A stretch of 64,000 bases of DNA from Aquificaceae bacterium (GCA_046297555.1 JBKBHW010000002.1:14385-78384); one strand, 5' to 3'; shown: positions 2,252 to 63,100, counted from the first letter of the stretch. The notes: a model not told the origin generated them from the letters alone. Made by a program: numbers and translations.

Positions 2252-2632
2252 GTTGTTGGCTCCGTTTAACTTCTGGTAAGCGCTGGAGATCACATAGTAT
2301 ATCTGTTCACCCTCCGCTATAGAAAGGTCATAAAGTGTAATGCTAAGGTCCTTAAGCACTTGGTAAAGGGTGGTGTACAGATTTTCGTCCAATTTTTTCT
2401 CCGGGTTTGGTATTTCCTTATAGGCTTTCATTATATAATCACACATGCCCTTTATACTCTTTGCTATGTTGACTATCTCGGGGTCATGGGCGTATATCTG
2501 CATAACCTCTGCATACCTTTCCTCTATCTCCTTGTAGGTGCTCTTAAAAAGTAAGTCTTCTAAAAAGAAGAGTTCTTTTTCCATGGCCAATCCTCTTCTG
2601 TATAAATATGGTCTTTTGAGATGTATTTTCAA
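2231..2632 (-). CDS. hypothetical helical protein
   Basis: 133-aa ORF with ATGA overlap to the upstream LOG gene; alternative start at 2584 with AGAGG RBS. Confidence 0.65.
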   Translation of the reverse strand: MKIHLKRPYLYRRGLAMEKELFFLEDLLFKSTYKEIEERYAEVMQIYAHDPEIVNIAKSIKGMCDYIMKAYKEIPNPEKKLDENLYTTLYQVLKDLSITLYDLSIAEGEQIYYVISSAYQKLNGANNLLERLV

Positions 2633-3081
2633 CTGACATATTTGTCCAAAAAGATAAGGATTTCTGACAGGTTGCTTGCCTGAAGTAGTCCTTCTATGTT
2701 ATGGGTTTTATAACCGATTATGGGCTTTCCCAATATGAGGGCATAGGCTATTTCCGAAAGGGTTCCCCAATTGCCACCTATATCTATCACCACATCGCCG
2801 CTGGCTACCACCAGAGGGTTTCTGTTCCAATTCATGCCGGTCCTTATCTTTATATCCACATAGGGGTTTGCCTCTTCCCCCTCATAGGAAGGAAGTATGC
2901 CTACAGTTAGCCCCTTGGCTTCCTTTGCGCCTTTGCATACCGCTTCCATAACACCGCTCCGTCCTCCACATACTACCACCAAACCCCTCTTGGCTATTTC
3001 TTTACCAAGCTCATAGGCTATTTTGTATTCCTCTTCCTCCGGCTTTGCCGCTGATGAACCTATGACAGCCACCTGCCTCAT
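2629..3081 (-). CDS. TIGR00725 / LOG (SLOG) family protein
   Basis: VAVIGSS, VVCGGRSGVMEAVCKGA, GILP and GGNWGTLSEIA motifs. Confidence 0.85.
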   Translation of the reverse strand: MRQVAVIGSSAAKPEEEEYKIAYELGKEIAKRGLVVVCGGRSGVMEAVCKGAKEAKGLTVGILPSYEGEEANPYVDIKIRTGMNWNRNPLVVASGDVVIDIGGNWGTLSEIAYALILGKPIIGYKTHNIEGLLQASNLSEILIFLDKYVS

Positions 3082-3104
3082 ATTTTTTTAAGTATAAGGG
3101 AATA

Positions 3105-3391
3105 TACGCCGGGTGAGAAATTATCTTTTGGTGGATGTTTAATATCTCAAAGGGCGTCTTCATAGCAAAGGAAGAAGAACCACATTCCTTAGATCTATTG
3201 CGTAGCAGTAGGTAGCGCGGGCATCCTTGCCCGCGATCTTTGATTGATTTTTTTCACAGGTAATAGCCTTTGCCACCTTTCCTTAAACTACGAGAGCGAA
3301 AAAGAGCCCTTATGTTATTGCGCAAGAAGTTTAACGGATAGGCGTCTCATAAACCATCCCTATAAAGGTTGAATTTCTCACCCAGCGCATA
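3105..3391. mobile_element. Non-autonomous MITE-like element with inverted termini and an internal REP doublet (most complete copy)
   Basis: TACGCCGGGTGAGAAATT at 3105-3122 and inverted AATTTCTCACCCAGCGCATA at 3372-3391. Inside: hairpin GTAGCGCGGGCATCCTTGCCCGCG (3212-3235), a decayed partner (3255-3276) and the AAAGAGCCCTTATGTTATTGCGCAAGAAG module. A third decayed terminus lies at 3410-3426. Confidence 0.7.
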
Positions 3392-3467
3392 GTTTTTAAG
3401 TGTAAAGAATATGCCGTGAGAAATTCAATAAACTTCTTGCATAATAAGGTATACCCCGTTATAGAGT

Positions 3468-6260
3468 TCATGCTTGAATTTTTTCCCTTTCCGCCAGTAC
3501 TTTCCTCAGATACAGCCCCGTGTAAGAGTTCTCCCTTTGGGCTATCTCCTCCGGTGGTCCCACTGCCACTACATAACCACCCCTTTCTCCTCCCTCCGGA
3601 CCAAGGTCTATAATCCAATCTGCGCTTTTTATAACATCAAGGTTATGCTCTATGACCACTACCGTGTTTCCTTTGTCCACAAGCCTCTGTAGTATGTCTA
3701 TAAGCTTTTTCACATCGTCCATGTGAAGGCCTGTGGTGGGCTCGTCCAAAAGGTAAAGAGTCCTGCCCGTTTCCTTTTTAGATAGCTCTCTTGAAAGCTT
3801 TATCCTTTGGGCTTCTCCACCAGACAAAGTGGTGGCTGGCTGACCAAGTTTTATATAGCCAAGGCCTATATCCTTTAAAAGCTGCAGCTTCCTCCTTATG
3901 GTGGGTATATTCTCAAAGAATTCGTAGGCTTCGTCCACCGTCATATCAAGCACGTCCGTTATGTTTTTACCCTTATAAAGAATGTCAAGGGTCTCCCTGT
4001 TGTACCTTTTGCCCTTACATACATCACAAGTCACATACAGGGGTGGTAAAAAGTGCATCTCCACCCTTATCACACCCTCACCCTGACAAGCTTCACACCT
4101 TCCACCTTTCACATTGAAAGAAAACCTTCCGGCGTTGTAGCCCCTTGCCCTTGCCTCGGGGGTCTGGGAAAAGAGCTCCCTTATATGGTCAAAGACCTTG
4201 GTGTAAGTGGCTGGGTTTGACCTTGGAGTCCTTCCTATGGGGGACTGATCTATGTTTATAACCTTATCAAAGTGTTCAAGGCCCTCTATGCTATCAAAGC
4301 CTTCCACTTCTGCATTGCCCCCATAAAAGAGAGCCCTGCTGTACTCCCAAAGGATATCGTATATGAGGGTAGATTTACCACTACCAGAGACTCCAGTGAT
4401 GCATACAAAGAGACCAACTGGAATTTCCACCGTAATATTCTTTAGGTTGTGCTTTTTTGCCCCCACTATCCTAAGCCATTTATCTTTGGGTTTTCTCCTT
4501 TTGTCTGGCACTGGTATGGAGAGCCTTCCCGAAAAGTAGGCGCCGGTAAGGGACCGCTCATCCCTTAGCATGTCCTCAACCCTTCCTTGAAAGACTACCT
4601 CACCACCCTTCTTGCCCGCCCCCGGACCCATATCAACCACCCAATCTGCGCTTAATATGGTCTCCGGGTCGTGTTCCACCACTATAACCGTGTTGCCAAG
4701 GTTCCTTAGATCCTTAAGGGTGTTTATAAGCTTTTCTGTGTCCCTTGGATGCAAGCCTATGGAGGGCTCATCAAGCACATAAAGAACTCCGGTAAGCTTA
4801 GAGCCTATCTGTGTGGCAAGCCTAATACGTTGCATCTCACCCCCAGAAAGGGTGGTGGCGCTGCGAGCAAGGTTTAGATAATCAAGCCCCACATTTATGA
4901 GAAAGCTAAGCCTGTCAGAAATTTCTTTTATCAACCTTTCCGCCACTATAAGGCTCTTGCCCTCAAGCTTGTAAGGAAGCTTATCAAAAAACTCCTTTGC
5001 CGACCTTATGGGCATACAGGATATTTCCCATATGCTTTTTCCATCCACAAGCACAGAAAGAGCCTCTGGCCTAAGTCTGGCACCGCCGCACTCAGGACAA
5101 GGCTTTTCCCTTATGAACTCCGATATCTCCTCCCTCAGCCTTTCTGACTCTTCTTCCAAAAACCTCCTCTCCAAATGCTTTACTACACCTTCAAAGCTTC
5201 CCCCGTCAAGGGAACCACCATAGAGCAAAAAGCTCCTTATTCCGCTGGGTAGATCCTGCCATGGGGTCTTTGGGTTGTATCCCAGTTTTCTCAGTATGTT
5301 CATTATGGGGTATTTTAGGTACTCAAAAAAGGAAGATTCAGTTATCCTTATGGCGTCCACCGCCGGCTCCCTTTCGTCTATTAAAAGCTTTACATCCACC
5401 TCCCATTTTACACCCAAGCCCTTACAGGCCGGACAGGCACCGTAGGGGGAGTTGAAGGAAAAAAGCCTTGGGGAAAGCTCTGGAATGGAAAAGCCATGAT
5501 CTGGGCAGGTTAGCCTCTCGCTAAAAATTTCTTCCCTTTGAGTATCCACCTCCTCCACCTTCAAAAGACCCTTGGACAGCTCAAGGGCCTTCTCTATGGC
5601 TGTAAGCAGCCTTGCCCTCTCTTCTTCATCAAGGGTAAGCCTGTCTACCACTAAATCCACATGGTGCTTTTTGTTTTTGTCTAAAGGTGGCACCTCAACT
5701 ATCCTCATATATTCCCCATCCACCTTTACCCTTGAAAAGCCCATCTTATCAAGCTCTTTAAACAGCTCCTTAAACTCACCCTTCTTGCCCCTAACCAAGG
5801 GAGACAGCAAGCTTATGCGCTTTCCTTTGTACTTTTCCCAGACCTTTTCCAATATTTCATGGGCTGAAAGCCCTTCAAGCAACCTTCCGCACTCTGGACA
5901 ATGGGGCTTTCCTATGTTTGCCCAAAGGACCCTCATATAGTCGTATATCTCCGTTACGGTGCCAACGGTAGAACGTGGGTTTTTGGAAGTGGTTTTTTGA
6001 TCTATCGCTATGGCTGGAGATAAACCCTCTATAATATCCACCTCTGGTTTTTCCATAATGCCAAGGAACTGCCTTGCATAGGAAGAGAGCGATTCTACAT
6101 ACCTCCTTTGCCCCTCCGCATATATGGTATCAAAGGCAAGGGAGGATTTGCCAGAGCCAGAAGGTCCGGTTATAACCACAAGCTTGTTCTTTGGTATATC
6201 AAGGTTTATGTTTTTTAGATTATGCTGACGGGCACCCCTTATTATGATCTTGTCGTACAT
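3468..6260 (-). CDS. uvrA: Excinuclease ABC subunit A
   Basis: Two ABC ATPase modules ([18 protein letters not shown]; [16 protein letters not shown]; LDEP), zinc-finger Cys pairs, 930 aa. Confidence 0.99.
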
Positions 6261-7790: not shown

Positions 7791-7970
7791 GCACAGGCAG
7801 GAGTGTCTGTGCTACATAGTCAAAAACAAAAATCATTCTCAAACATACGCCGGGTGAGAAATTGCTTTCTTAGGTTTTGTCTTCACATGTTCAAAATTTC
7901 ATAGTAGGGGCACGCCGCGGCGTGCCCCCACAAAAGGGAAAAAGAGCCCTTAGATTGTTGCGCAAGAATG
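7791..7970. repeat. REP/MITE-family repeat cluster
   Basis: Type-B REP in reverse (7791-7815), terminus TACGCCGGGTGAGAAATT (7846-7863), type-C REP GTAGGGGCACGCCGCGGCGTGCCCC (7904-7928), and AAAGAGCCCTT...GCGCAAGAA module (about 7940-7968), between convergent genes. Confidence 0.8.
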
Positions 7971-11836: not shown

Positions 11837-12647
11837 TGTTGAGCTTTGGAAAAACTTGGTGGAAAAAAGGCTTAGAGAAATTCTTAGGTCCTTTGAGCCC
11901 CAAATCCTTTATGAGGCCATGTCTTATTACCTTTTTCAAGAAGGAAAGCGCATAAGGCCCCTTTTTCTATGCACCGTATGTAATGCCCTCGGTGGCTCTG
12001 TGGAGGACGCTATCACCGTAGGTTGTGCCGTTGAGATGGTGCATAACTATTCTTTGATCCATGATGACCTTCCGGCCTTGGATAACGACAGCTTTAGAAG
12101 GGGTAAGCCTTCCTGCCATGTGGCCTTTGGTGAGGATATGGCCATATTGGCTGGAGATGCCCTCCTTACCTATGCCTTTGAGGTTTTGGCCAATAAAGAA
12201 AACTTTAGGTCCTTGGAAGAGGGCCAACTCCTTTCTTTGATAGGCCTTTTGGCAAAGAAGGCGGGCTTTGAAGGTATGGTGGGGGGACAGGTTTTGGACA
12301 TAAAAAAGCTCTCAGACCAATGGGAGATCAGCCTCAAAAAGACAGCAGAACTCTTCTCCTTTTGCTTCCTTGCCGGTGGAATATTGGCCAAGAGATACGA
12401 CCTTTTAAAGGGCCTTGAAGATCTGGGCTTAAAGGTGGGCCTTCTTTTTCAGATGGTGGACGATTACAAAGACAAGGATGGCTTTTACAATTCCTTGGGA
12501 GATAGCCTTTTGGAAAGGGTGGAAGACCTTAGAAAAGAATGCTATCAAAGGGCCAAATCAATTGGGGTGTTTGTAGAAGAGTTTGAAGAGTTGCTCGCCT
12601 TGGTTGTTGGCGGAGGGGGAGGGATTCGAACCCCCGGTGGGCTGTAA
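11829..12647 (+). CDS. ispA: Polyprenyl (farnesyl/geranylgeranyl) diphosphate synthase
   Basis: GKRIRP, SLIHDDLPALDNDSFRRGKP, GGQVLDI, KTAELF, FQMVDD motifs. Confidence 0.9.
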   Translation: MSNVELWKNLVEKRLREILRSFEPQILYEAMSYYLFQEGKRIRPLFLCTVCNALGGSVEDAITVGCAVEMVHNYSLIHDDLPALDNDSFRRGKPSCHVAFGEDMAILAGDALLTYAFEVLANKENFRSLEEGQLLSLIGLLAKKAGFEGMVGGQVLDIKKLSDQWEISLKKTAELFSFCFLAGGILAKRYDLLKGLEDLGLKVGLLFQMVDDYKDKDGFYNSLGDSLLERVEDLRKECYQRAKSIGVFVEEFEELLALVVGGGGGIRTPGGL

Positions 12648-12698
12648 ACCCACTGGTGATTTCAAATCACCCGCCTTCGTCCACTCGGCCACCCCTCC
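12608..12698 (-). tRNA. tRNA-Ser(TGA), CCA encoded
   Basis: Reverse complement GGAGGGGTGGCCGAGTGG...GATTTGAAATC...long variable arm...GGTTCGAATCCCTCCCCCTCCGCCA. Confidence 0.96.
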
Positions 12699-12770
12699 AG
12701 ATGATATTATTATAAGCCGAAGTCAAAGGGTTAATAACTCAAAAAGTCTAAAAATTCCCTTTAATATTTT

Positions 12771-13232
12771 GTTGTTCAGAAATTCAAGTTTATATGCTGG
12801 GTGAGAAATTCAAATTGTCCCTTGTGTATAACATAACAGCTCCTACTCCCTGCGTAGTTTCATAAAAGGTGGCACAGGCATCCTGCCTGTGCGAAGAGAA
12901 TCAATCAAAGGGCATGTGCAAAGGTGCCCGCTCCACCGACTATTAAATAATAGATCTAAGGAATGTTTCTTTTTCTTTTTTGTAGGGGCACGCTGCGGCG
13001 TGCCCCTACCACGGAATTCTTTATTTTCGCACCAAAGTTGTTCAGAAATTCAAGTTTATTCAGCAAAGTCTTTGGCAACCATAAAGGTTTTACCTACGAT
13101 ATATAGTAGGGTGTGTTATGAGGTAATGCGGGCATCCATGCCCGCGTATTTTGATTAAATCTTTTTCCACAGGCAGGGATGTTTGTGCTACCCTTCATAA
13201 AAGGAAGGGGCTATGTTGCTATTATGCAATAA
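12771..13232. repeat. Complex REP/MITE cluster with a 23-bp direct repeat
   Basis: Terminus at 12793-12810; type-B REP 12869-12892; type-C palindrome 12982-13009; A+B doublet at 13123-13146 and 13168-13191; identical GTTGTTCAGAAATTCAAGTTTAT at 12771-12793 and 13037-13059. Confidence 0.85.
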
Positions 13233-14059: not shown

Positions 14060-14270
14060 TACCACAGATGAGAAATTGTCTTTTGGGTAGATGTGTAATG
14101 CTTTTGATTTAGGTCCATTGCGTACGCGTAGCATTAGGTAGCGCGGGCATCCTTGCCCGCGCCTCTTGGTTAAATCTTCTTACACAGGCAGGATGCTTGT
14201 GCTACCTTTCATAAACTTAAACTACGGGAGGAAAAAAAAGAGCCTTTATGTTATCACGCAAGAAGTTTTA
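14060..14270. repeat. REP/MITE-family copy lacking the right terminus
   Basis: Decayed terminus 14060-14077, type-A REP 14138-14161, inverted type-B 14183-14205, AAAGAGCCTTTATGTTATCACGCAAGAAG module. Confidence 0.85.
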
Positions 14271-14280
14271 TATTTAAGCT

Positions 14281-14388
14281 ATGCCACATTTAACCCTTGA
14301 TATGTTACAGCTTTTAGAGGAAAGGCTGGGAAAGGAAGAAGCCAAGAAGGTGGCGGAGGCTATTCAGAAGGCTTTGGTGCACAAATAA
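14281..14388 (+). pseudogene. 35-aa remnant resembling the N-terminus of an Aquificae coiled-coil (DUF1640-like) protein
   Basis: Hand translation MPHLTLDMLQLLEERLGKEEAKKVAEAIQKALVHK*, with genome-typical codon usage inside an otherwise repeat-filled spacer. Family resemblance is from recall only. Confidence 0.45.
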
Positions 14389-14392
14389 AGAA

Positions 14393-14512
14393 GTCCTTGA
14401 TAGTAGCGCACTGCAGCATGCCTCTAAAAAAGAGGGGGAAAGAACCCTACCTTTGTCAAAAGAAGATGCCACGCCTATGCGGTGGTCTGAATCAAAAAAA
14501 TTTATGCACCAA
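14393..14512. repeat. ~110-bp dispersed repeat, copy 1 (copy 2 at 27147-27250)
   Basis: GTCCTTGATAGTAGC...CTTTGTC..A.AAGAT.CCACGC.TATGCGGTG.TCTGAATCAAAAAAATTTATGCACCAA shared with 27147-27250 apart from an ~20-bp indel. Confidence 0.75.
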
Positions 14513-14548
14513 CGCCCCCAGCGTGTGTATTAGTTTATAATATAAGGC

Positions 14549-27056: not shown

Positions 27057-27146
27057 GATAAGGAATCTAATAAAAACCTGCTATTTGTATACAAAGAGAG
27101 AGATCATCTCAGGACAAGAGATTGGCTTTAGTGCAGAAATAGAGAG

Positions 27147-27250
27147 GTCCTTGATAGTAGCCCGCTGTAGTATGTCTTTACAAAAGACTTTGTCCAAAAA
27201 AGATACCACGCTTATGCGGTGATCTGAATCAAAAAAATTTATGCACCAAA
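27147..27250. repeat. ~110-bp dispersed repeat, copy 2
   Basis: Homologous to 14393-14512. Confidence 0.75.
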
Positions 27251-27266
27251 ACCCGCCGAAGTCTTT

Positions 27267-35896: not shown

Positions 35897-36035
35897 CATG
35901 CTGGGTAATAATTTTTGAGTTTGACTATGTAGCATAGACATTCCTATCTGTGAAGTATTTTTTAAACACACAGGCAAGAATGCCTATGCTACGCCTTATT
36001 ATGCAAGAATCTTATTTAATTTCTCACCCAGCATA
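35897..36035. mobile_element. Short MITE-like copy with inverted B-type REP doublet
   Basis: Decayed left terminus CATGCTGGGTAATAATTT (35897-35914), REPs at 35929-35952 and 35969-35992, right terminus AATTTCTCACCCAGCATA (36018-36035). Confidence 0.7.
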
Positions 36036-36065: not shown

Positions 36066-38861
36066 ATGATAGAATGGCTTGTTAAAAAGCTCCTTGGTAC
36101 CAAGAGTGAGAGAGAGGTAAAAAGGCTGCGCAAGGTGGTTAAAAGGATAACGGAAAAGGAGAGGGAGTTGGATAGTCTTTCCAACCTTGAGATAGTCCAG
36201 ATTGCCCAGGAGATACATAAAAGGGTCTTGCAAGAGGAAGGGCTGAAAGAAAGGATAAGGAGGGGGGAGATAACAGAAGAGGTGGAGCTTGTCTTTGCCC
36301 TTGTAAGAGAAGCTGGTAAAAGGGCACTTGGCCTTAGATTCTTTGATGTCCAGCTCATAGGTGGACTTGTCCTGCATGAGGGGAAGATTGCCGAAATGAA
36401 GACGGGAGAAGGTAAGACCTTGGTTGCTACATCTGCCACCGCGGTGAACGCCATGACCGATGAGGGCGTGCATGTGGTAACGGTCAATGATTACCTTGCA
36501 AGGAGGGATGCCCAGTGGATGGGTCCCATATACCTTTTCCTTGGCTTGGATGTGGGTGTTATAAACTCAGATTATTCGTCTTACAAGGTAGAGTGGGCAG
36601 ACCCTCATCTTGCCCAAAAGGCCATAGAAGAAGACCTAAGGGTGTGGCCCAAAGGCTACTTTGAAGAGACTTTACCCTCTGACCTCATAAACGTACAAGC
36701 CAAAAAGGCCTTTTATACAAAGCTTGTTCCTTGCACAAGGAGAGAAGCTTATGAATGCCATATAACCTATGGTACTAACAACGAGTTTGGCTTTGATTAT
36801 CTAAGGGGCAACATGGCCTTTTCCCTTGAGGAGGTGGTGCAGGTAAAAGGTCATAACTTTGCCATAGTGGACGAGGTAGACTCTATCCTTATAGATGAGG
36901 CAAGGACCCCTTTAATAATCTCCGGGCCTGCCGAGATGGACACATCTATATATTACAAGGCAGATGAGGTGGTAAGAAGGCTAAAAATAGAAGAGGACTT
37001 TACCGTTGATGAAAAGAATAGAACTGCACAACTCACAGAAAAGGGCATAAGAAAAGTAGAAGAACTCTTGGACATAGAAAACCTCTACGATATAAGGCAT
37101 ATTGACCTTTTGCACGCTATAAACCAAGCCCTAAGGGCGCACACCCTTTTTAAAAGGGATGTTCATTACATAGTAAAAGATGGTGAAGTGCTTATAGTGG
37201 ATGAATTTACCGGTAGGGTGCTTCCCGGCAGAAGGTGGAGCGATGGATTACACCAAGCCATAGAGGTAAAAGAGGGGGTACCTATTCAAAGGGAGAACCA
37301 AACCTTGGCAAGCATAACCTTTCAAAACTACTTTAAGCTTTACAGAAAGCTCTCTGGTATGACGGGTACGGCGGAGACGGAAGCCCTTGAATTTAAAGAA
37401 ATATACAGCCTTGAGGTGGTTGTAGTACCTACCCACAAACCTATGAGAAGAAAGGACCATCCAGACCTTGTTTATAAAACAAAGGAAGAGAAATGGCAGG
37501 CGGTGGTGGATCTTATAAAACAAGAGCATGAGAAGGGAAGACCCATACTTGTTGGAACGGTATCTATAGAAGATTCAGAGCACCTTTCAAGGCTTCTCCA
37601 AAAGGAGAAAATACCACACAACGTGCTTAACGCAAAGCACCATGAAAAGGAGGCGCAGATAATAGCCCAAGCGGGAAGACTTGGAGCTGTGACCATATCC
37701 ACCAACATGGCGGGAAGAGGAACGGACATACTTTTGGGGGGAAACCCCGAATACTTGGCAAAGGAGATACTCCTATCAAAGCATAAATCTTTGGAAGAAG
37801 CCACGGAGGAAGAGTGGAAAGAGGCCTTAGAAAAGGCCTACAGGATAACAGAAGAAGAAAAGAAAAAGGTAGTGGAGCTTGGTGGTCTTTTGGTTATAGG
37901 TACAGAAAGGCATGAGTCAAGGAGGATAGACAACCAGCTAAGGGGAAGGGCTGGAAGACAAGGAGACCCAGGGGAGTCCCGTTTTGTGCTATCTTTGGAA
38001 GATGACCTTATGAGGATCTTTGGAGGAGATAGAGTTAAAAGGCTCATGGACATGTTAAAGATACCACCCGGAGAACCCATAGAGAGCAGGATGGTTACAA
38101 AAGCCATAGAAAATGCTCAAAAGAGGGTAGAGGCACAGAACTTCCAAATAAGAAAAAGGCTTCTTGAGTACGATATGGTAATGAACACCCAAAGGCTAAC
38201 TGTATACTCTATGAGGAGGGATATTCTTGAATCCAAAGGCCTTGAAGAGTATTTAAAGGAGTTTGTGTATGACCTTGTGGCTCAAAAGGTGGATGAGCTC
38301 ATAAGGGAAGAAGAGCCAGAGCTGTGGGACCTTGAACCGCTTAAAAACTACCTCAAGGAGTTAACAGGACAAGATATAGAAATACCTCGGGCCAGGGACA
38401 AGGAGGATTTGATAAACCTTCTATGGGAAAAGGTCCTTGGGGTAATAGAAAGAAAGAAGGAGCAGGTAGGGAAGGAGGTATTTACAGAGCTTCTAAGGGT
38501 GCTTATGCTTTCCAACCTTGACCATCTATGGAGAGAACATCTACACACAATGGACAGGTTAAGAGAAAGCATATACCTACGCGGCTATGCTTCAAAGGAT
38601 CCACTTGTAGAGTATAAAAAAGAAGCCTTTTACATATTTGAAGATATGCTAAGCAGGTTTAGGGAGAGAACGGTGTCCGACCTTTTACACATGCAGGTAA
38701 GGTCTGGGGAAGAGGTTCAAGAAGAGATAAAAAGGGAGGAGCAAGAAAAGGAAAAGCTTTTGAGTATGGCGGTGTTTAGCGGGGTAGAAGGAAAGGCAGA
38801 TCAGAAAAGTCCTAAGAGGAAGACTCTGAAGGAAAGGTTGCAGTCAAGGAAGAAGAGGTGA
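36066..38861 (+). CDS. secA: Preprotein translocase ATPase SecA
   Basis: AEMKTGEGKT, VTVNDYLA.RD, DEVDSILIDEARTPLIISG, TNMAGRGTDI, QLRGRAGRQGDPG. Contains an insert after the GVI motif. Confidence 0.99.
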   Translation: MIEWLVKKLLGTKSEREVKRLRKVVKRITEKERELDSLSNLEIVQIAQEIHKRVLQEEGLKERIRRGEITEEVELVFALVREAGKRALGLRFFDVQLIGGLVLHEGKIAEMKTGEGKTLVATSATAVNAMTDEGVHVVTVNDYLARRDAQWMGPIYLFLGLDVGVINSDYSSYKVEWADPHLAQKAIEEDLRVWPKGYFEETLPSDLINVQAKKAFYTKLVPCTRREAYECHITYGTNNEFGFDYLRGNMAFSLEEVVQVKGHNFAIVDEVDSILIDEARTPLIISGPAEMDTSIYYKADEVVRRLKIEEDFTVDEKNRTAQLTEKGIRKVEELLDIENLYDIRHIDLLHAINQALRAHTLFKRDVHYIVKDGEVLIVDEFTGRVLPGRRWSDGLHQAIEVKEGVPIQRENQTLASITFQNYFKLYRKLSGMTGTAETEALEFKEIYSLEVVVVPTHKPMRRKDHPDLVYKTKEEKWQAVVDLIKQEHEKGRPILVGTVSIEDSEHLSRLLQKEKIPHNVLNAKHHEKEAQIIAQAGRLGAVTISTNMAGRGTDILLGGNPEYLAKEILLSKHKSLEEATEEEWKEALEKAYRITEEEKKKVVELGGLLVIGTERHESRRIDNQLRGRAGRQGDPGESRFVLSLEDDLMRIFGGDRVKRLMDMLKIPPGEPIESRMVTKAIENAQKRVEAQNFQIRKRLLEYDMVMNTQRLTVYSMRRDILESKGLEEYLKEFVYDLVAQKVDELIREEEPELWDLEPLKNYLKELTGQDIEIPRARDKEDLINLLWEKVLGVIERKKEQVGKEVFTELLRVLMLSNLDHLWREHLHTMDRLRESIYLRGYASKDPLVEYKKEAFYIFEDMLSRFRERTVSDLLHMQVRSGEEVQEEIKREEQEKEKLLSMAVFSGVEGKADQKSPKRKTLKERLQSRKKR

Positions 38862-51348: not shown

Positions 51349-51369
51349 AAATGCTTATATAATCCTTAA

Positions 51370-51674
51370 TACACGCCAGGTGAGAAATTACACCTTTGTA
51401 AAAAATAAACCTCTTGCGTGATAACATAAAGGCTCTTTTTCTTAAGGTAGCACAAGCATCCCTGCCTGTGAAAGAAAAAAGATTTAATCAAAAGACGCGG
51501 GCAAGGATGCCCGCGCTACCTCTATGGTTGCTCAAAACAAAGAGATAGAGCTTTGCCCACCCCTACCTATCTTATAGAACAAAAACTAATCATGCAAGAA
51601 GTTTAATAGTCAAAGATCGCAAGCGAGGATGCCCGCGCCCTATTCTCCATTAAAGAAAAAGAGAATTTCTCACC
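51370..51674. mobile_element. MITE-like copy (reverse orientation) with REP doublet
   Basis: Terminus 51370-51389, reversed AAAGAGCC module 51411-51440, type-B REP 51447-51470, inverted type-A 51496-51519, decayed A at 51618-51642, inverted partial terminus AATTTCTCACC 51664-51674 touching the DUF202 stop. Confidence 0.75.
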
Positions 51675-52327
51675 TATATAATCCTTAATACATAAAAGGT
51701 AAGCACCAAACAGGCAAGGAATATGATAAGTCCATAAACTTTGTAGTACCAAAGGCTTGTCCTATAAAAGCCCCTGTCCACCTGCCTCACCGTCCTGAAA
51801 AAGTTTATGGCACCCAGTATGAAGGTTATTATTCCTATGGCTATGATAAAGAGCCCTATTTTTGCCAAGTTATGGTGCTCCGCACTAAGGTGCATGTTAA
51901 AGACCTTTTCCAGCTGTACTATAAAAAACTCAAACCTTTCAATGACAAAGCCAAAGATAATTAGGGCTATGGCTGTTCTAATCCACGCAAGGAAGGTCCT
52001 TTCTGCAGCCATGTAGATCCTTGGGTCTATAACCTCTTTGGGTTCCACCATTATACCTCCATCTATATAAAGTATATTCTTGTAAAAGTTTATAGATGCT
52101 ATAAGAATAAAAAGAACACCAAATATGGCTAAGATTATTGAAGTGGCTTGCAAAAGGACGGATGTGTGTATCTTTTGGACTGCTTGAGCTATGATTTCAA
52201 GCTTTTCTAAAAAGACGGCAAAGGAGAGGGCGTAGAGAGAGAGTCTGATAGACCCTAAGTAGCTCCTCTCCAACGACATGTATATACGAGCATCCCTCGC
52301 AGAGGGTAGACTTTTTGCCAGCAGCAT
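51674..52327 (-). CDS. Tandem-domain DUF202 (YidH-like) membrane protein
   Basis: Two copies of the DUF202 signature: ERSYLGSIRLSL and ERTFLAWIRTAIAL. Confidence 0.82.
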   Translation of the reverse strand: MLLAKSLPSARDARIYMSLERSYLGSIRLSLYALSFAVFLEKLEIIAQAVQKIHTSVLLQATSIILAIFGVLFILIASINFYKNILYIDGGIMVEPKEVIDPRIYMAAERTFLAWIRTAIALIIFGFVIERFEFFIVQLEKVFNMHLSAEHHNLAKIGLFIIAIGIITFILGAINFFRTVRQVDRGFYRTSLWYYKVYGLIIFLACLVLTFYVLRII

Positions 52328-59649: not shown

Positions 59650-59673
59650 AAGAAATAATATTAAAGCAAAGGA

Positions 59674-59933
59674 TACGCCGAGTGAGAAATTCAACCTTTA
59701 TAGGGATGGTTTATGAAATGCCTATTCATTAGATTTCTTGCGCGATAACATAAGGGCTCTTTTCCCCCTCCCGTAGTTCAAGTTTATGAAAGGTAGCGCA
59801 GGCATCCCTGCCTGTGGAAAAAGATTTAACCAAAAACGCAGGCAAGGATGCCCGCGCTACCGACTTTGGTGTATAAACTTTTAATTCATGTAGCCTTCCC
59901 TGTCCTTCGGGCGACCTTTATGGTCGCCCCTAC
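59674..59933. mobile_element. MITE-like copy (reverse orientation) with REP doublet and a type-D REP
   Basis: Terminus 59674-59691 plus ~85 bp matching the reverse complement of about 3297-3385; type-B 59793-59816; inverted type-A 59837-59860; GGGCGACCTTTATGGTCGCCCCTAC at 59909-59933. Confidence 0.8.
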
Positions 59934-62759: not shown

Positions 62760-62846
62760 TGGTGCCGGAGGCGGGAGTCGAACCCGCACGCCCTTGCGGG
62801 CGGGGGATTTTGAATCCCCTGCGTCTGCCAGTTCCGCCACTCCGGC
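62760..62846 (-). tRNA. tRNA-Leu(CAA), CCA encoded
   Basis: Reverse complement GCCGGAGTGGCGGAACTGG...GGGGA-TTCAAAA-TCCCC...GGTTCGACTCCCGCCTCCGGCACCA. Confidence 0.96.
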
Positions 62847-62873
62847 TAAGGATAAATTATATTATACTAATCC

Positions 62874-63100
62874 TACGCCGGGTGAGAAATTCAATTTTCG
62901 TAGGGCATCATTTTAGATGCTTGTTTAAAGGGAGCAATTCGCGAATTGTCCTTACACAAAATTTTTCATAATTTGTAAGGGCACGCCGCAGCGTGCCCCT
63001 ACCACGGAATTCTGGGCAAAACCTCTAAGCAGCGCGGGCATCCTTGCCCGCGATCTTTGATTAATTTTTTTCTACACAGGCAGGATGCCTGTGCTACGAC
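62874..63100. repeat. REP/MITE-family cluster
   Basis: Terminus 62874-62891, type-C palindrome 62975-63002, type-A 63029-63052, inverted type-B 63075-63097. Confidence 0.85.

What the first reader, a model, noticed from the sequence alone, without database searches (positions are those of the whole stretch)
3105..3391. ~290-bp MITE-like unit with 18-bp inverted termini that carries a REPIN inside it
Seen: TAYGCYGGGTGAGAAATT occurs at 3105, 7846, 12793, 51370, 59674 and 62874, decayed at 3410, 14060 and 35897, and inverted at 3372-3391, 36018-36035 and 51664-51674. At 3105-3391, 35897-36035 and 51370-51674 two termini face inward around a REP doublet. Internal modules keep a fixed order: TTAGATCTATTGC, A, spacer, B, CTTTCATAAACTT, AAAGAGCCCTTATGTTAT, terminus. 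The 59.7 kb copy matches the 3.3 kb copy in reverse for about 85 bp. Known: TA-starting inverted termini recall IS630-derived MITEs such as Neisseria Correia elements, moved by DDE transposases, whereas REPINs are moved by HUH enzymes and have no terminal repeats. Inference: this is a hybrid non-autonomous element combining cis-sites for two different transposition chemistries, or one element nested in the other and co-amplified. It is the best candidate for an undescribed element here.
Basis: partly seen in the sequence, partly recalled or inferred. Interest (0 to 1): 0.75.

Follow-up and report, generated by a model that had tools for sequence, protein, structure and literature searches.

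The report
MITEs of an IS982-like insertion sequence
The 287-bp unit is a real miniature transposon whose ends match a 966-bp insertion sequence in a sister genome; the family is unusual because each insertion duplicates 21-38 bp of target DNA, typically a gene's core promoter up to its start codon.

Summary
The 18-mer occurs 8 times in the window (0.11 expected) and 187 times in the 1.45-Mb genome. Neighbouring copies face inward 39 times against 5 in other arrangements.

These are true MITEs of 114-396 bp. A same-genus complete genome holds at least 21 copies of a 966-bp IS with the same 17-bp inverted repeats (ACGCCGGGTGAGAAATT) and a 282-aa DDE transposase distantly related to IS982 and IS5. 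The window's own genome keeps a decayed 759-bp copy and IS ends at contig edges.

Empty sites in sister genomes show that the whole repeat-bounded unit is gained. The target duplication is not TA. It is 21-38 bp (median 27), bounded C|AT...AT|G, and often runs from a -10 box to a start codon.

REP-like GTAG hairpins sit in 37 of 39 units, but they also occur alone. No RAYT (HUH) gene exists in this genome, and none was identified in the 24 genus members searched.

So "MITE" is supported. "IS630/Correia-like" is rejected. "Two transposition chemistries" is unsupported. I rate it a new variant of a known kind.

The parts
3080..3105 (.). Left copy of the target duplication (ATATTTTTTTAAGTATAAGGGAATAT). 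It starts with the AT of the CAT start codon (3079-3081) of the minus-strand gene 2629..3081 and contains that gene's -10-like TATACT.
   Evidence: G014 and G016 have one copy of this sequence. TTCTCA-17 nt-TATACT promoter-like match.
3106..3388 (.). MITE body, 283 bp. Left inverted repeat 3106-3122 (ACGCCGGGTGAGAAATT). Right inverted repeat 3372-3388 (reverse complement GCGCTGGGTGAGAAATT). No ORF. Subfamily with a 'type 10' left end and a 'type 1' right end.
   Evidence: aligned with three sister copies in the genome; folds far better than shuffles, z = -4.2.
3212..3235 (+). REP-type hairpin with a GTAG head (GTAGCGCGGGCATCCTTGCCCGCG), the first arm of the internal doublet.
   Evidence: (family D1).
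3255..3277 (-). Decayed second REP of the doublet, in inverted orientation. It carries a 13-nt deletion relative to sister copies.
   Evidence: alignment.
3389..3412 (.). Right, diverged copy of the target duplication (ATAGTTTTTAAGTGTAAAGAATAT). Its last AT is also the first two bases of the older terminus that follows.
3411..3449 (+). Older solo end: decayed inverted repeat ATGCC-GTGAGAAATT plus a 'type 0' subterminal stretch. The rest of that element is gone.
   Evidence: (I20).
7846..7970 (+). One-ended copy: intact left terminus ('type 6' end), a GC-rich REP hairpin, and a truncated 'type 1' end with no right terminus.
   Evidence: (D6, D7).
12771..13058 (.). MITE 12793-13036 with a decayed right terminus, flanked by a perfect 22-bp duplication GTTGTTCAGAAATTCAAGTTTA (12771-12792 and 13037-13058).
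14060..14270 (+). Copy with a decayed left terminus (TACCACAGATGAGAAATT, 'type 2' end), a REP doublet, and a truncated 'type 1' end.
35897..36035 (.). 139-bp MITE. Left terminus has 4 mismatches; right terminus is perfect and lies 30 nt upstream of the ATG at 36066, with TATAAT in between.
51356..51690 (.). MITE 51372-51674 with a truncated right terminus, flanked by the 16-bp duplication TATATAATCCTTAATA.
   Evidence: (D12).
59674..59865 (+). One-ended copy ('type 1' end plus REP doublet). Its terminus lies 24 nt from the start codon of the minus-strand gene to its left.
   Evidence: (I1).
62874..63100 (+). One-ended copy ('type 5' end plus three REP hairpins) just upstream of the minus-strand tRNA gene at 62763-62846.

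Best explanation
The unit at 3106-3388 is one member of a large MITE superfamily. There are about 40 two-ended copies of 114-396 bp and roughly 100 one-ended or decayed ends in this 1.45-Mb Aquificaceae genome (GTDB genus of 'Candidatus Pampinifervens').

Shown:
- The MITEs share only their 17-bp inverted repeats, ACGCCGGGTGAGAAATT, with a 966-bp insertion sequence. That IS encodes a single 282-aa DDE transposase distantly related to IS982 and IS5.
- Whole units are gained at once.
- Each clean insertion is flanked by a direct duplication of 21-38 bp (median 27).
- The duplicated stretch nearly always begins and ends with AT and is flanked by C and G (C|AT...AT|G).
- The duplicated stretch very often holds a TATAAT-like box 7-8 nt upstream of an ATG. 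One edge frequently falls inside the start codon of a real gene.

Inferred mechanism: the transposase, supplied in trans, binds the inverted repeats. It joins the two element ends to the two target strands at AT|G half-sites about 2-3.5 helical turns apart. Gap repair then copies the stretch in between. Because that stretch is a complete leaderless-type core promoter, the flanking gene (or both divergent genes) keeps a promoter and the insertion is tolerated. This would explain why about half of all termini lie 10-45 nt (peak 20-25 nt) upstream of a start codon.

The REP-like GTAG hairpin doublets are passenger or nested sequence carried by almost every MITE. They are not evidence of a second, HUH-type mobilisation.
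For: Pairing of termini: 39 inward-facing pairs against 5 other arrangements.

Autonomous partner. A full IS was found in same-genus genome G014, 966-968 bp, in at least 21 copies, with a 282-aa ORF. All 18 homologues hit NCBIfam IS982 (best E 7.7e-12), 13 hit IS5_4 and 6 hit PF01609. D114, D215 and E240 are invariant. The AlphaFold model has pLDDT 81.6, and its top three PDB hits, plus ranks 4-6, are DDE transposases: Mos1, Tn5, Metnase. The window's own genome has a decayed 759-bp copy at C8:15131-15889 and IS ends at 7 contig edges.

Target duplications. 14 of 21 G014 IS copies have perfect flanking repeats. 14 of 40 pairs in the window's genome score above the 99th percentile of mismatched flanks. 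21 strictly abutting events span 21-38 bp.

Duplication edges. Over 42 symmetrised edges, A is at -2 in 37, T at -1 in 33 and G at +1 in 32; AT|G occurs at 25.

Empty sites. C26:2856-3251 is absent from 8 sister genomes, C4:18923-19132 is absent from G006, and the target is single-copy in both. Three G014 insertions are empty in G000. At the window locus, G014 and G016 carry one copy of the sequence that is duplicated around 3106-3388.

Gene context. 94 termini have an outward ORF ATG 10-45 nt away, and 88 of these have a 5/6 or better TATAAT in between. The gap from -10 to ATG peaks at 7-8 nt. 7 of 12 G014 duplications end exactly at the ATG of an ORF that stays open through the flank.

Inverted-repeat shape fits the published IS982 consensus 5'-AC(N)6T(N)5TT (PMC7335449).
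Against: - No intact transposase gene is assembled in the window's own genome, so current mobility there is inferred from contig-edge ends.
- About half of the two-ended units lack a recognisable duplication.
- End types are combined promiscuously, for example 1+2, 0+3, 4+6 and 1+5. Some 'pairs' may therefore be two independent half-elements or recombinants.
- The transposase scores far below the IS982 trusted cut-off (28 against 130 bits). The fold matches are weak (E 8e-3 to 0.1).
- About half of the AT|G edges are not real gene starts. The promoter association may therefore be a by-product of sequence preference plus selection.
Confidence: 0.85

Rival explanations
1. Hybrid element with two transposition chemistries. 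The REP doublet inside is a REPIN moved by a RAYT (HUH/Y1) enzyme, while the outer inverted repeats are moved by a DDE enzyme.
For: The hairpins have the classic REP look: a GTAG head, a GC-rich palindrome, and inverted doublets GGTAGC[REP]~19 nt[REP]GCTACC. By a conservative count, about 40-45% of hairpin regions show no recognisable terminus or subterminal module nearby. One sister copy (C8:57121) has an extra single REP that its three relatives lack, so REPs are gained or lost on their own.
Against: PF01797 (Y1_Tnp) finds nothing in this 98%-complete genome, although the same search rings in 6 control genomes. Only 2 of 24 other genus genomes have a hit; the G015 hit is an IS605-type TnpA beside a TnpB-like ORF with no REPs nearby, and no REPs were found near the G012 hit, whose gene context was not examined. 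Half of the 'stand-alone' doublets inspected in fact had a decayed terminus within 70 nt.
Confidence: 0.07
2. IS630/Tc1-derived MITE of the Correia type, inserting at TA and duplicating it.
For: Most copies appear to begin with TA and end with TA. They are of similar size and abundance and lie next to promoters, as Correia elements do (the Correia comparison is from my own knowledge).
Against: The outermost base varies T/C/A and always matches the flank, so it belongs to the target. Duplications are 21-38 bp and single-copy at empty sites. The matching IS encodes an IS982/IS5-type protein.
Confidence: 0.02
3. Not mobile DNA. The 18-mer is a conserved promoter or operator motif, and inward-facing pairs are simply divergent promoters.
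For: About half of the termini lie 10-45 nt upstream of an outward gene start with a -10 box in between. At 3119-3091 the terminus supplies TTCTCA exactly 17 nt from TATACT.
Against: The motif bounds a transposase-coding IS. Units are flanked by duplications and are absent from orthologous sites. Copy number swings from 0 to 124 among genomes of one genus. The distance from terminus to -10 is broad, at 3-17 nt.
Confidence: 0.02
4. Exaptation on top of mobility. After insertion, the outward-facing terminus (TTCTCA plus upstream hairpins) works as the -35/upstream half of the flanking gene's promoter, and the hairpins insulate the duplicated promoter that now points into the element. Copies would then be kept by selection.
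For: The insertion replaces everything upstream of about -24 of roughly 90 genes. The most common spacing puts TTCTCA 17 nt from the -10. 37 of 39 units carry hairpins, one of them terminator-like. IS982 members are known to form hybrid promoters (PMC7335449).
Against: Only 29 of 88 copies have a 16-18-nt spacing. The median duplication of 27 bp implies about 20 nt. TTCTCA matches TTGACA at only 4 of 6 positions. No transcript data could be obtained.
Confidence: 0.2
5. Target choice is guided by promoter-bound RNA polymerase (the open-complex edge at +2 of leaderless genes) rather than by DNA sequence.
For: Edges fall exactly inside start codons that are probably also transcription starts. In one case (L032) both edges fall on the two divergent start codons.
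Against: About half of the AT|G edges are followed by ORFs of only 1-35 codons. The same AT|G rule therefore holds away from genes, which points to sequence preference.
Confidence: 0.12

Closest known systems
IS982 family insertion sequences (review PMC7335449)
   Same: About 1 kb with a single DDE transposase ORF of about 280-300 aa. Inverted repeats start with 5'-AC and fit AC-N6-T-N5/6-TT. Members often sit in promoter regions and can form hybrid promoters. The best HMM match of all 18 homologues is IS982.
   Different: Scores are far below the family cut-off (28 against 130 bits), with nearly equal hits to IS5 models. Listed IS982 members make 2-10-bp duplications; this one makes 21-38 bp with a C|AT...AT|G rule. 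No Aquificota member is in the 70-element table, and the review never uses the word MITE.
Bacterial MITEs such as Neisseria Correia elements
   Same: Short, non-coding, repeat-bounded, abundant and intergenic. They sit next to promoters, share only their ends with the autonomous IS, and can fold as a long hairpin.
   Different: Correia-type elements duplicate TA and are linked to a different transposase type (from my own knowledge). Here the duplication is an order of magnitude longer, and the interior is a mosaic of REP-type hairpins.
IS1202 family (27-28-bp duplications) and IS1182 family (2-60 bp)
   Same: Precedents for very long or very variable target duplications (bioRxiv 10.1101/2022.12.17.520857; PMC7335449).
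   Different: Those are larger elements with unrelated transposases. NCBIfam scans of this protein family returned only IS982 and IS5 transposase models. The IS1202 subgroup length is fixed, whereas here it ranges from 21 to 38 bp within one genome.
REP/REPIN-RAYT systems
   Same: GTAG-headed palindromes arranged as inverted doublets, in hundreds of copies (167 + 221 + 28).
   Different: No RAYT gene in this genome, and none identified in the 24 genus members searched. Most doublets sit inside or beside repeat-bounded units that carry duplications, which REPINs do not have.

Membership tests
MITE (non-autonomous derivative of a DDE-type IS) | Terminal inverted repeats identical to those of an autonomous IS | tested here: met
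   The 17-bp ACGCCGGGTGAGAAATT bounds both the MITEs and the 966-bp IS.
MITE (non-autonomous derivative of a DDE-type IS) | Small size and no coding capacity | tested here: met
   Units are 114-396 bp. No ORF of 60 aa or more lies wholly within 3106-3388; the one random frame that overlaps it (3331..3618, minus strand) runs out into the flank.
MITE (non-autonomous derivative of a DDE-type IS) | Flanking target-site duplication | tested here: met
   21-38 bp in 21 strict events. The window unit has a diverged 24-26-bp pair.
MITE (non-autonomous derivative of a DDE-type IS) | Presence/absence of the whole unit at orthologous sites | tested here: met
IS982 family | About 1-kb element with one transposase ORF | tested here: met
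   966 bp with a 282-aa ORF.
IS982 family | Inverted repeats with 5'-AC ends, consensus AC(N)6T(N)5TT | tested here: met
   ACGCCGGGTGAGAAATT has AC, T at position 9, and TT at positions 16-17, one base later than the consensus.
IS982 family | Transposase reaches the family HMM cut-off | tested here: not met
   NF033520 scores 28.2 bits against a cut-off of 130. The best member has E 7.7e-12, and IS5_4 scores nearly as well.
IS982 family | Target duplication of 2-10 bp | tested here: not met
   21-38 bp against 2-10 bp in PMC7335449.
IS982 family | DDE catalytic triad on an RNase H-like fold | tested here: inconclusive
   D114, D215 and E240 are invariant in 18 sequences. The top fold hits are Mos1, Tn5 and Metnase, but at E 8e-3 to 1.
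IS630/Tc1-derived MITE (Correia-like) | TA target duplicated on insertion | tested here: not met
IS630/Tc1-derived MITE (Correia-like) | Cognate IS630/Tc1-mariner transposase | tested here: not met
   The IS that shares the termini encodes a protein that hits only IS982/IS5/DDE_Tnp_1 models.
REPIN-RAYT | GTAG-headed palindromes in inverted doublets | tested here: met
REPIN-RAYT | Cognate RAYT (Y1_Tnp) gene in the genome | tested here: not met
   0 hits in G000 while the controls were positive. The only two genus hits are in G015 (an IS605-type TnpA) and G012 (not examined).
REPIN-RAYT | Doublet gained or lost as a unit, without inverted repeats or duplication | not tested
   Only one single-REP indel inside a MITE was seen. 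No stand-alone doublet was compared with an empty site.
IS1202 / IS1182 (long-duplication families) | Transposase homology | tested here: not met
   The NCBIfam scan of 18 members returned only IS982 and IS5 transposase models, plus one marginal unrelated regulator hit (E 0.0084).

The most novel reading that the evidence does not exclude
A previously undescribed branch of IS982/IS5-like transposases integrates with an exceptionally long and elastic stagger (21-38 bp) at paired CAT/ATG half-sites. It therefore lands between or just upstream of the start codons of leaderless genes and duplicates the entire core promoter. This would be a 'promoter-duplicating' safe-haven strategy. It has let the IS's hairpin-laden MITEs occupy the -25 position of roughly 90 genes in a 1.45-Mb thermophile genome, where they may now supply the upstream half of those promoters.
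Probability: 0.45. Interest if true: 0.75.

Novelty: new variant of a known kind. Interest (0 to 1): 0.58.

Why it matters
- For transposon biology, it adds a compact 282-aa DDE enzyme whose target duplication is three to ten times longer than in its nearest family and varies by 17 bp within one genome. A rigid two-active-site transpososome is hard to reconcile with that. The simple C|AT...AT|G rule makes the question testable in vitro.
- For genome biology, it shows how a very compact genome, with intergenic spacers as short as 24 bp between divergent start codons, can still absorb more than 100 insertions. The insertion copies the promoter it splits.
- For annotation, it explains assembly breaks in this genus (contigs end in this IS). 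It also explains chimeric ORF calls that fuse flanking genes to transposase fragments, and the apparent 'conserved motif' upstream of many genes.
- For the REP field, it offers a case in which GTAG-type REP doublets persist and spread without any detectable RAYT, apparently as cargo of DDE-type MITEs.

Tried and rejected
- Rfam gathering scan of the window: only 4 tRNAs, and no RNA family on the repeats.
- Pfam on fragments of the decayed C8 copy: no hits.
- Pfam on the intact 282-aa protein: no meaningful hit. The family link came only from NCBIfam and from scanning 18 homologues.
- RAYT search in the window's genome and across the genus: negative or unrelated.
- A clean empty site for the window unit itself could not be obtained. 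Sister genomes either have a small coiled-coil gene in that spacer or a much shorter spacer. Only the single-copy state of the duplicated 22-26 bp could be shown.
- Orientation of the transposase relative to the adjacent gene: 4 of 6 co-directional, not informative.
- The idea that the terminus must sit 17 nt from the -10: the spacing is too broad to support this.
- Literature searches for Aquificae MITEs, IS982 MITEs, or insertion at leaderless start codons returned nothing relevant.
- Earlier notes of this scan held only a first-reader note on the REP hairpins.

Full report
**Observation**

With up to 3 mismatches it gives 8 hits in the window, against 0.11 expected from dinucleotide shuffles. 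A relaxed core search recovers the decayed copies at 3408, 14060 and 51664. The 35897 copy has four mismatches. The 96-nt reverse match between 3300-3395 and 59668-59763 (88%) and the repeated internal modules are confirmed.

The window lies in a 1.447-Mb, 61-contig, 44% GC genome. Sister genomes in the same GTDB genus bear titles such as 'Candidatus Pampinifervens sinense' and 'Aquificaceae bacterium'.

**Are the termini paired?**

Genome-wide there are 187 hits. Among neighbours closer than 600 bp, 39 pairs face inward, against 2, 2 and 1 in the other three arrangements. Unit lengths are 114-396 bp.

**Is there an IS with these ends?**

Two classes of subterminal sequence belong to a longer element. 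One is a 759-bp decayed copy at C8:15131-15889. The others are ends sitting at seven contig edges, the signature of a multi-copy IS that broke the assembly.

A complete same-genus genome (G014) has at least 21 copies of 966-968 bp. One of them (L011) reads tacgccgagtgagaaatt...aatttctcacccggcgt and carries a single 282-aa ORF. Evidence on the protein:
- It has no Pfam hit on its own, and a weak NCBIfam IS982 hit (E 1.3e-6, 28 bits, cut-off 130).
- All 18 aligned homologues, which are hot-spring metagenome proteins mostly labelled 'hypothetical', hit IS982. The best E-value is 7.7e-12. Thirteen also hit IS5_4 and six hit PF01609.
- D114, D215 and E240 are invariant.
- An AlphaFold model (pLDDT 81.6) finds Mos1, Tn5 and Metnase first in the PDB, though weakly.

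The window's own assembly has no intact copy.

**Target duplication: the main surprise**

Twelve of the first 17 G014 IS copies have perfect flanking direct repeats of 21-36 bp, and two of four more copies also do. In the window's genome, 14 of 40 two-ended units have flank repeats above the 99th percentile of mismatched flanks. A search from single termini finds further cases with a decayed partner, including two in the window: 12793-13036 with 22 bp, and 51372-51674 with 16 bp.

The outermost base of the '18-mer' varies T/C/A and always agrees with the flank. The element proper is therefore AC...GT (17-bp inverted repeat), which also fits the published IS982 consensus AC(N)6T(N)5TT.

With that definition, 21 strictly abutting events give duplications of 21-38 bp, median 27.

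**Empty sites**

- The 396-bp unit at C26:2856-3251 is absent from eight sister genomes. The 210-bp unit at C4:18923-19132 is absent from G006. In both cases the 24-25-bp target is single-copy.
- Conversely, three G014 insertions (one full IS and two MITEs) are empty in the window's genome.
- At the window locus itself the spacer content differs among genomes. G014 and G016 nevertheless have one copy of CAT-GGTTTTTAAGTATAAAGGAAT where the window has two copies, 3080-3105 and 3389-3412, flanking the unit.

So it is the whole repeat-bounded unit, not the REP doublet, that is gained.

**Relation to genes**

Ninety-four termini have an outward ORF beginning with ATG 10-45 nt away, with a peak at 20-25 nt. 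Eighty-eight of these have a 5/6 or better TATAAT in between. The gap from the -10 box to the ATG peaks at 7-8 nt, which is the geometry of leaderless transcripts.

In G014, 7 of 12 duplications end exactly at the ATG of an ORF that stays open through the flank. In one case both edges are the start codons of divergent genes only 24 bp apart. About half of the AT|G edges are not gene starts. I therefore favour intrinsic sequence preference plus selection over polymerase-guided targeting.

Termini of the ATGCY variant themselves offer an AT|G half-site. That explains tandem pile-ups such as the older solo end at 3411-3449, which abuts the window unit's right duplication.

At the left end of the window unit, TTCTCA in the terminus lies 17 nt from TATACT of the flanking gene. 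Genome-wide this spacing is broad, so a promoter role is possible but unproven.

**The internal hairpins**

Three GTAG-headed palindrome types occur 167, 221 and 28 times. They form inverted doublets. At least one type is present in 37 of 39 two-ended units.

At least 55-60% of hairpins lie beside recognisable termini or subterminal modules. Half of the apparently stand-alone cases I inspected still had a decayed terminus close by. One sister of the window unit has an extra single hairpin, so hairpins also turn over on their own.

No Y1/HUH transposase is detectable in this genome, although the controls were positive. The only hits in 24 other genus genomes are in G015 and G012. The G015 one is an IS605-type TnpA beside a TnpB-like ORF, and no REPs were found near either. 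The 'two chemistries' reading therefore lacks its second enzyme, and 'nested cargo, co-amplified' is the better description.

**Structure of the family**

Subterminal sequences fall into about ten types that combine freely: 1+2 six times, 0+3 three times, and 2+4, 4+6, 1+6 and 0+2 twice each. Only the inverted repeats are shared with the IS.

The window unit belongs to a small subfamily with three sisters. It folds much better than shuffled sequence (z = -4.2).

Copy number of the terminus ranges from 0 to 124 among genomes of the genus. The window's genome has the most.

**Comparison with known systems and verdict**

The parent element works like, and is most similar to, IS982-family elements. 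However, it fails two membership tests: the HMM cut-off and the 2-10-bp duplication. Long duplications are known from IS1202 (27-28 bp) and variable ones from IS1182 (2-60 bp), but these involve unrelated transposases.

I found no paper describing MITEs or IS elements of this kind in Aquificota. ISfinder could not be consulted.

I rate the finding as real. The family assignment and the two-chemistry idea are not supported. The element is a new variant of a known kind, whose long, elastic, promoter-duplicating integration deserves an experiment.

**Limits**

The window's own assembly has no intact transposase. All mechanistic steps beyond sequence anatomy are inference.

Noticed in passing
window 14281-14388; L070 and L071 (G014 and G016 spacer orthologous to window 3082-3467): A truncated copy of a small coiled-coil gene (MPHLTLDMLQLLEERLGKEEAKK...) follows the MITE remnant at 14.1-14.3 kb. 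An intact version of about 120 aa fills the spacer in G014 and G016 at the locus where the window has the 3106-3388 MITE instead.
   Followed up: partly
window 14370-14517 and 27124-27254: A separate repeat of about 150 bp (83-90% identical, families D8/D9) with its own hairpins (for example GCCACGCCTATGCGGTGGT) lies next to the MITE remnants. It does not belong to the repeat-bounded family and was not analysed.
   Followed up: no
G000 C8:15185-15215; L011 255-285: The IS itself carries a subterminal palindrome, upstream of the transposase start, that encloses a TATAAT box (GGTAGGGCTATAATATTAGCCCTAC in G000). It is GTAG/CTAC-flanked like the REP hairpins. GTAG hairpins may therefore be a cis feature of this IS family rather than RAYT substrates.
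   Followed up: no
G000 C13:2015-2294 vs L011; G000 C4:67259-67459 vs L036: Two orthologous promoter sites are occupied by a 280-bp or 201-bp MITE in the window's genome and by the full 966-bp IS in G014. This points to hot-spot reuse or replacement by recombination between identical termini.
   Followed up: partly
G000 contig ends (C12, C13, C21, C25, C31, C36, C43); G016 contig ends: Many contigs of this genome, and nearly all contigs of G016, end inside this IS. The element is the main cause of assembly breaks in the genus.
   Followed up: partly
proteins P0035, P0013, P0030, P0049 and others: Public gene calls include chimeric proteins that fuse unrelated enzyme domains (NadC, response regulator, radical SAM, SHMT) to transposase fragments. 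This is as expected if the IS lands at or near start codons and decays.
   Followed up: no
L089 (G015:C1:~750300-752000): An IS605-type pair: a 116-aa Y1 TnpA with a convergent 418-aa TnpB-like ORF. It is one of only two Y1 transposase hits in the genus (the other, in G012, was not examined).
   Followed up: partly
window 62763-62891 and 12611-12810: Two of the window's tRNA genes (minus strand) have a MITE terminus within about 30-95 nt upstream, with TATAAT-like boxes in between. The elements therefore also sit in tRNA promoters.
   Followed up: no
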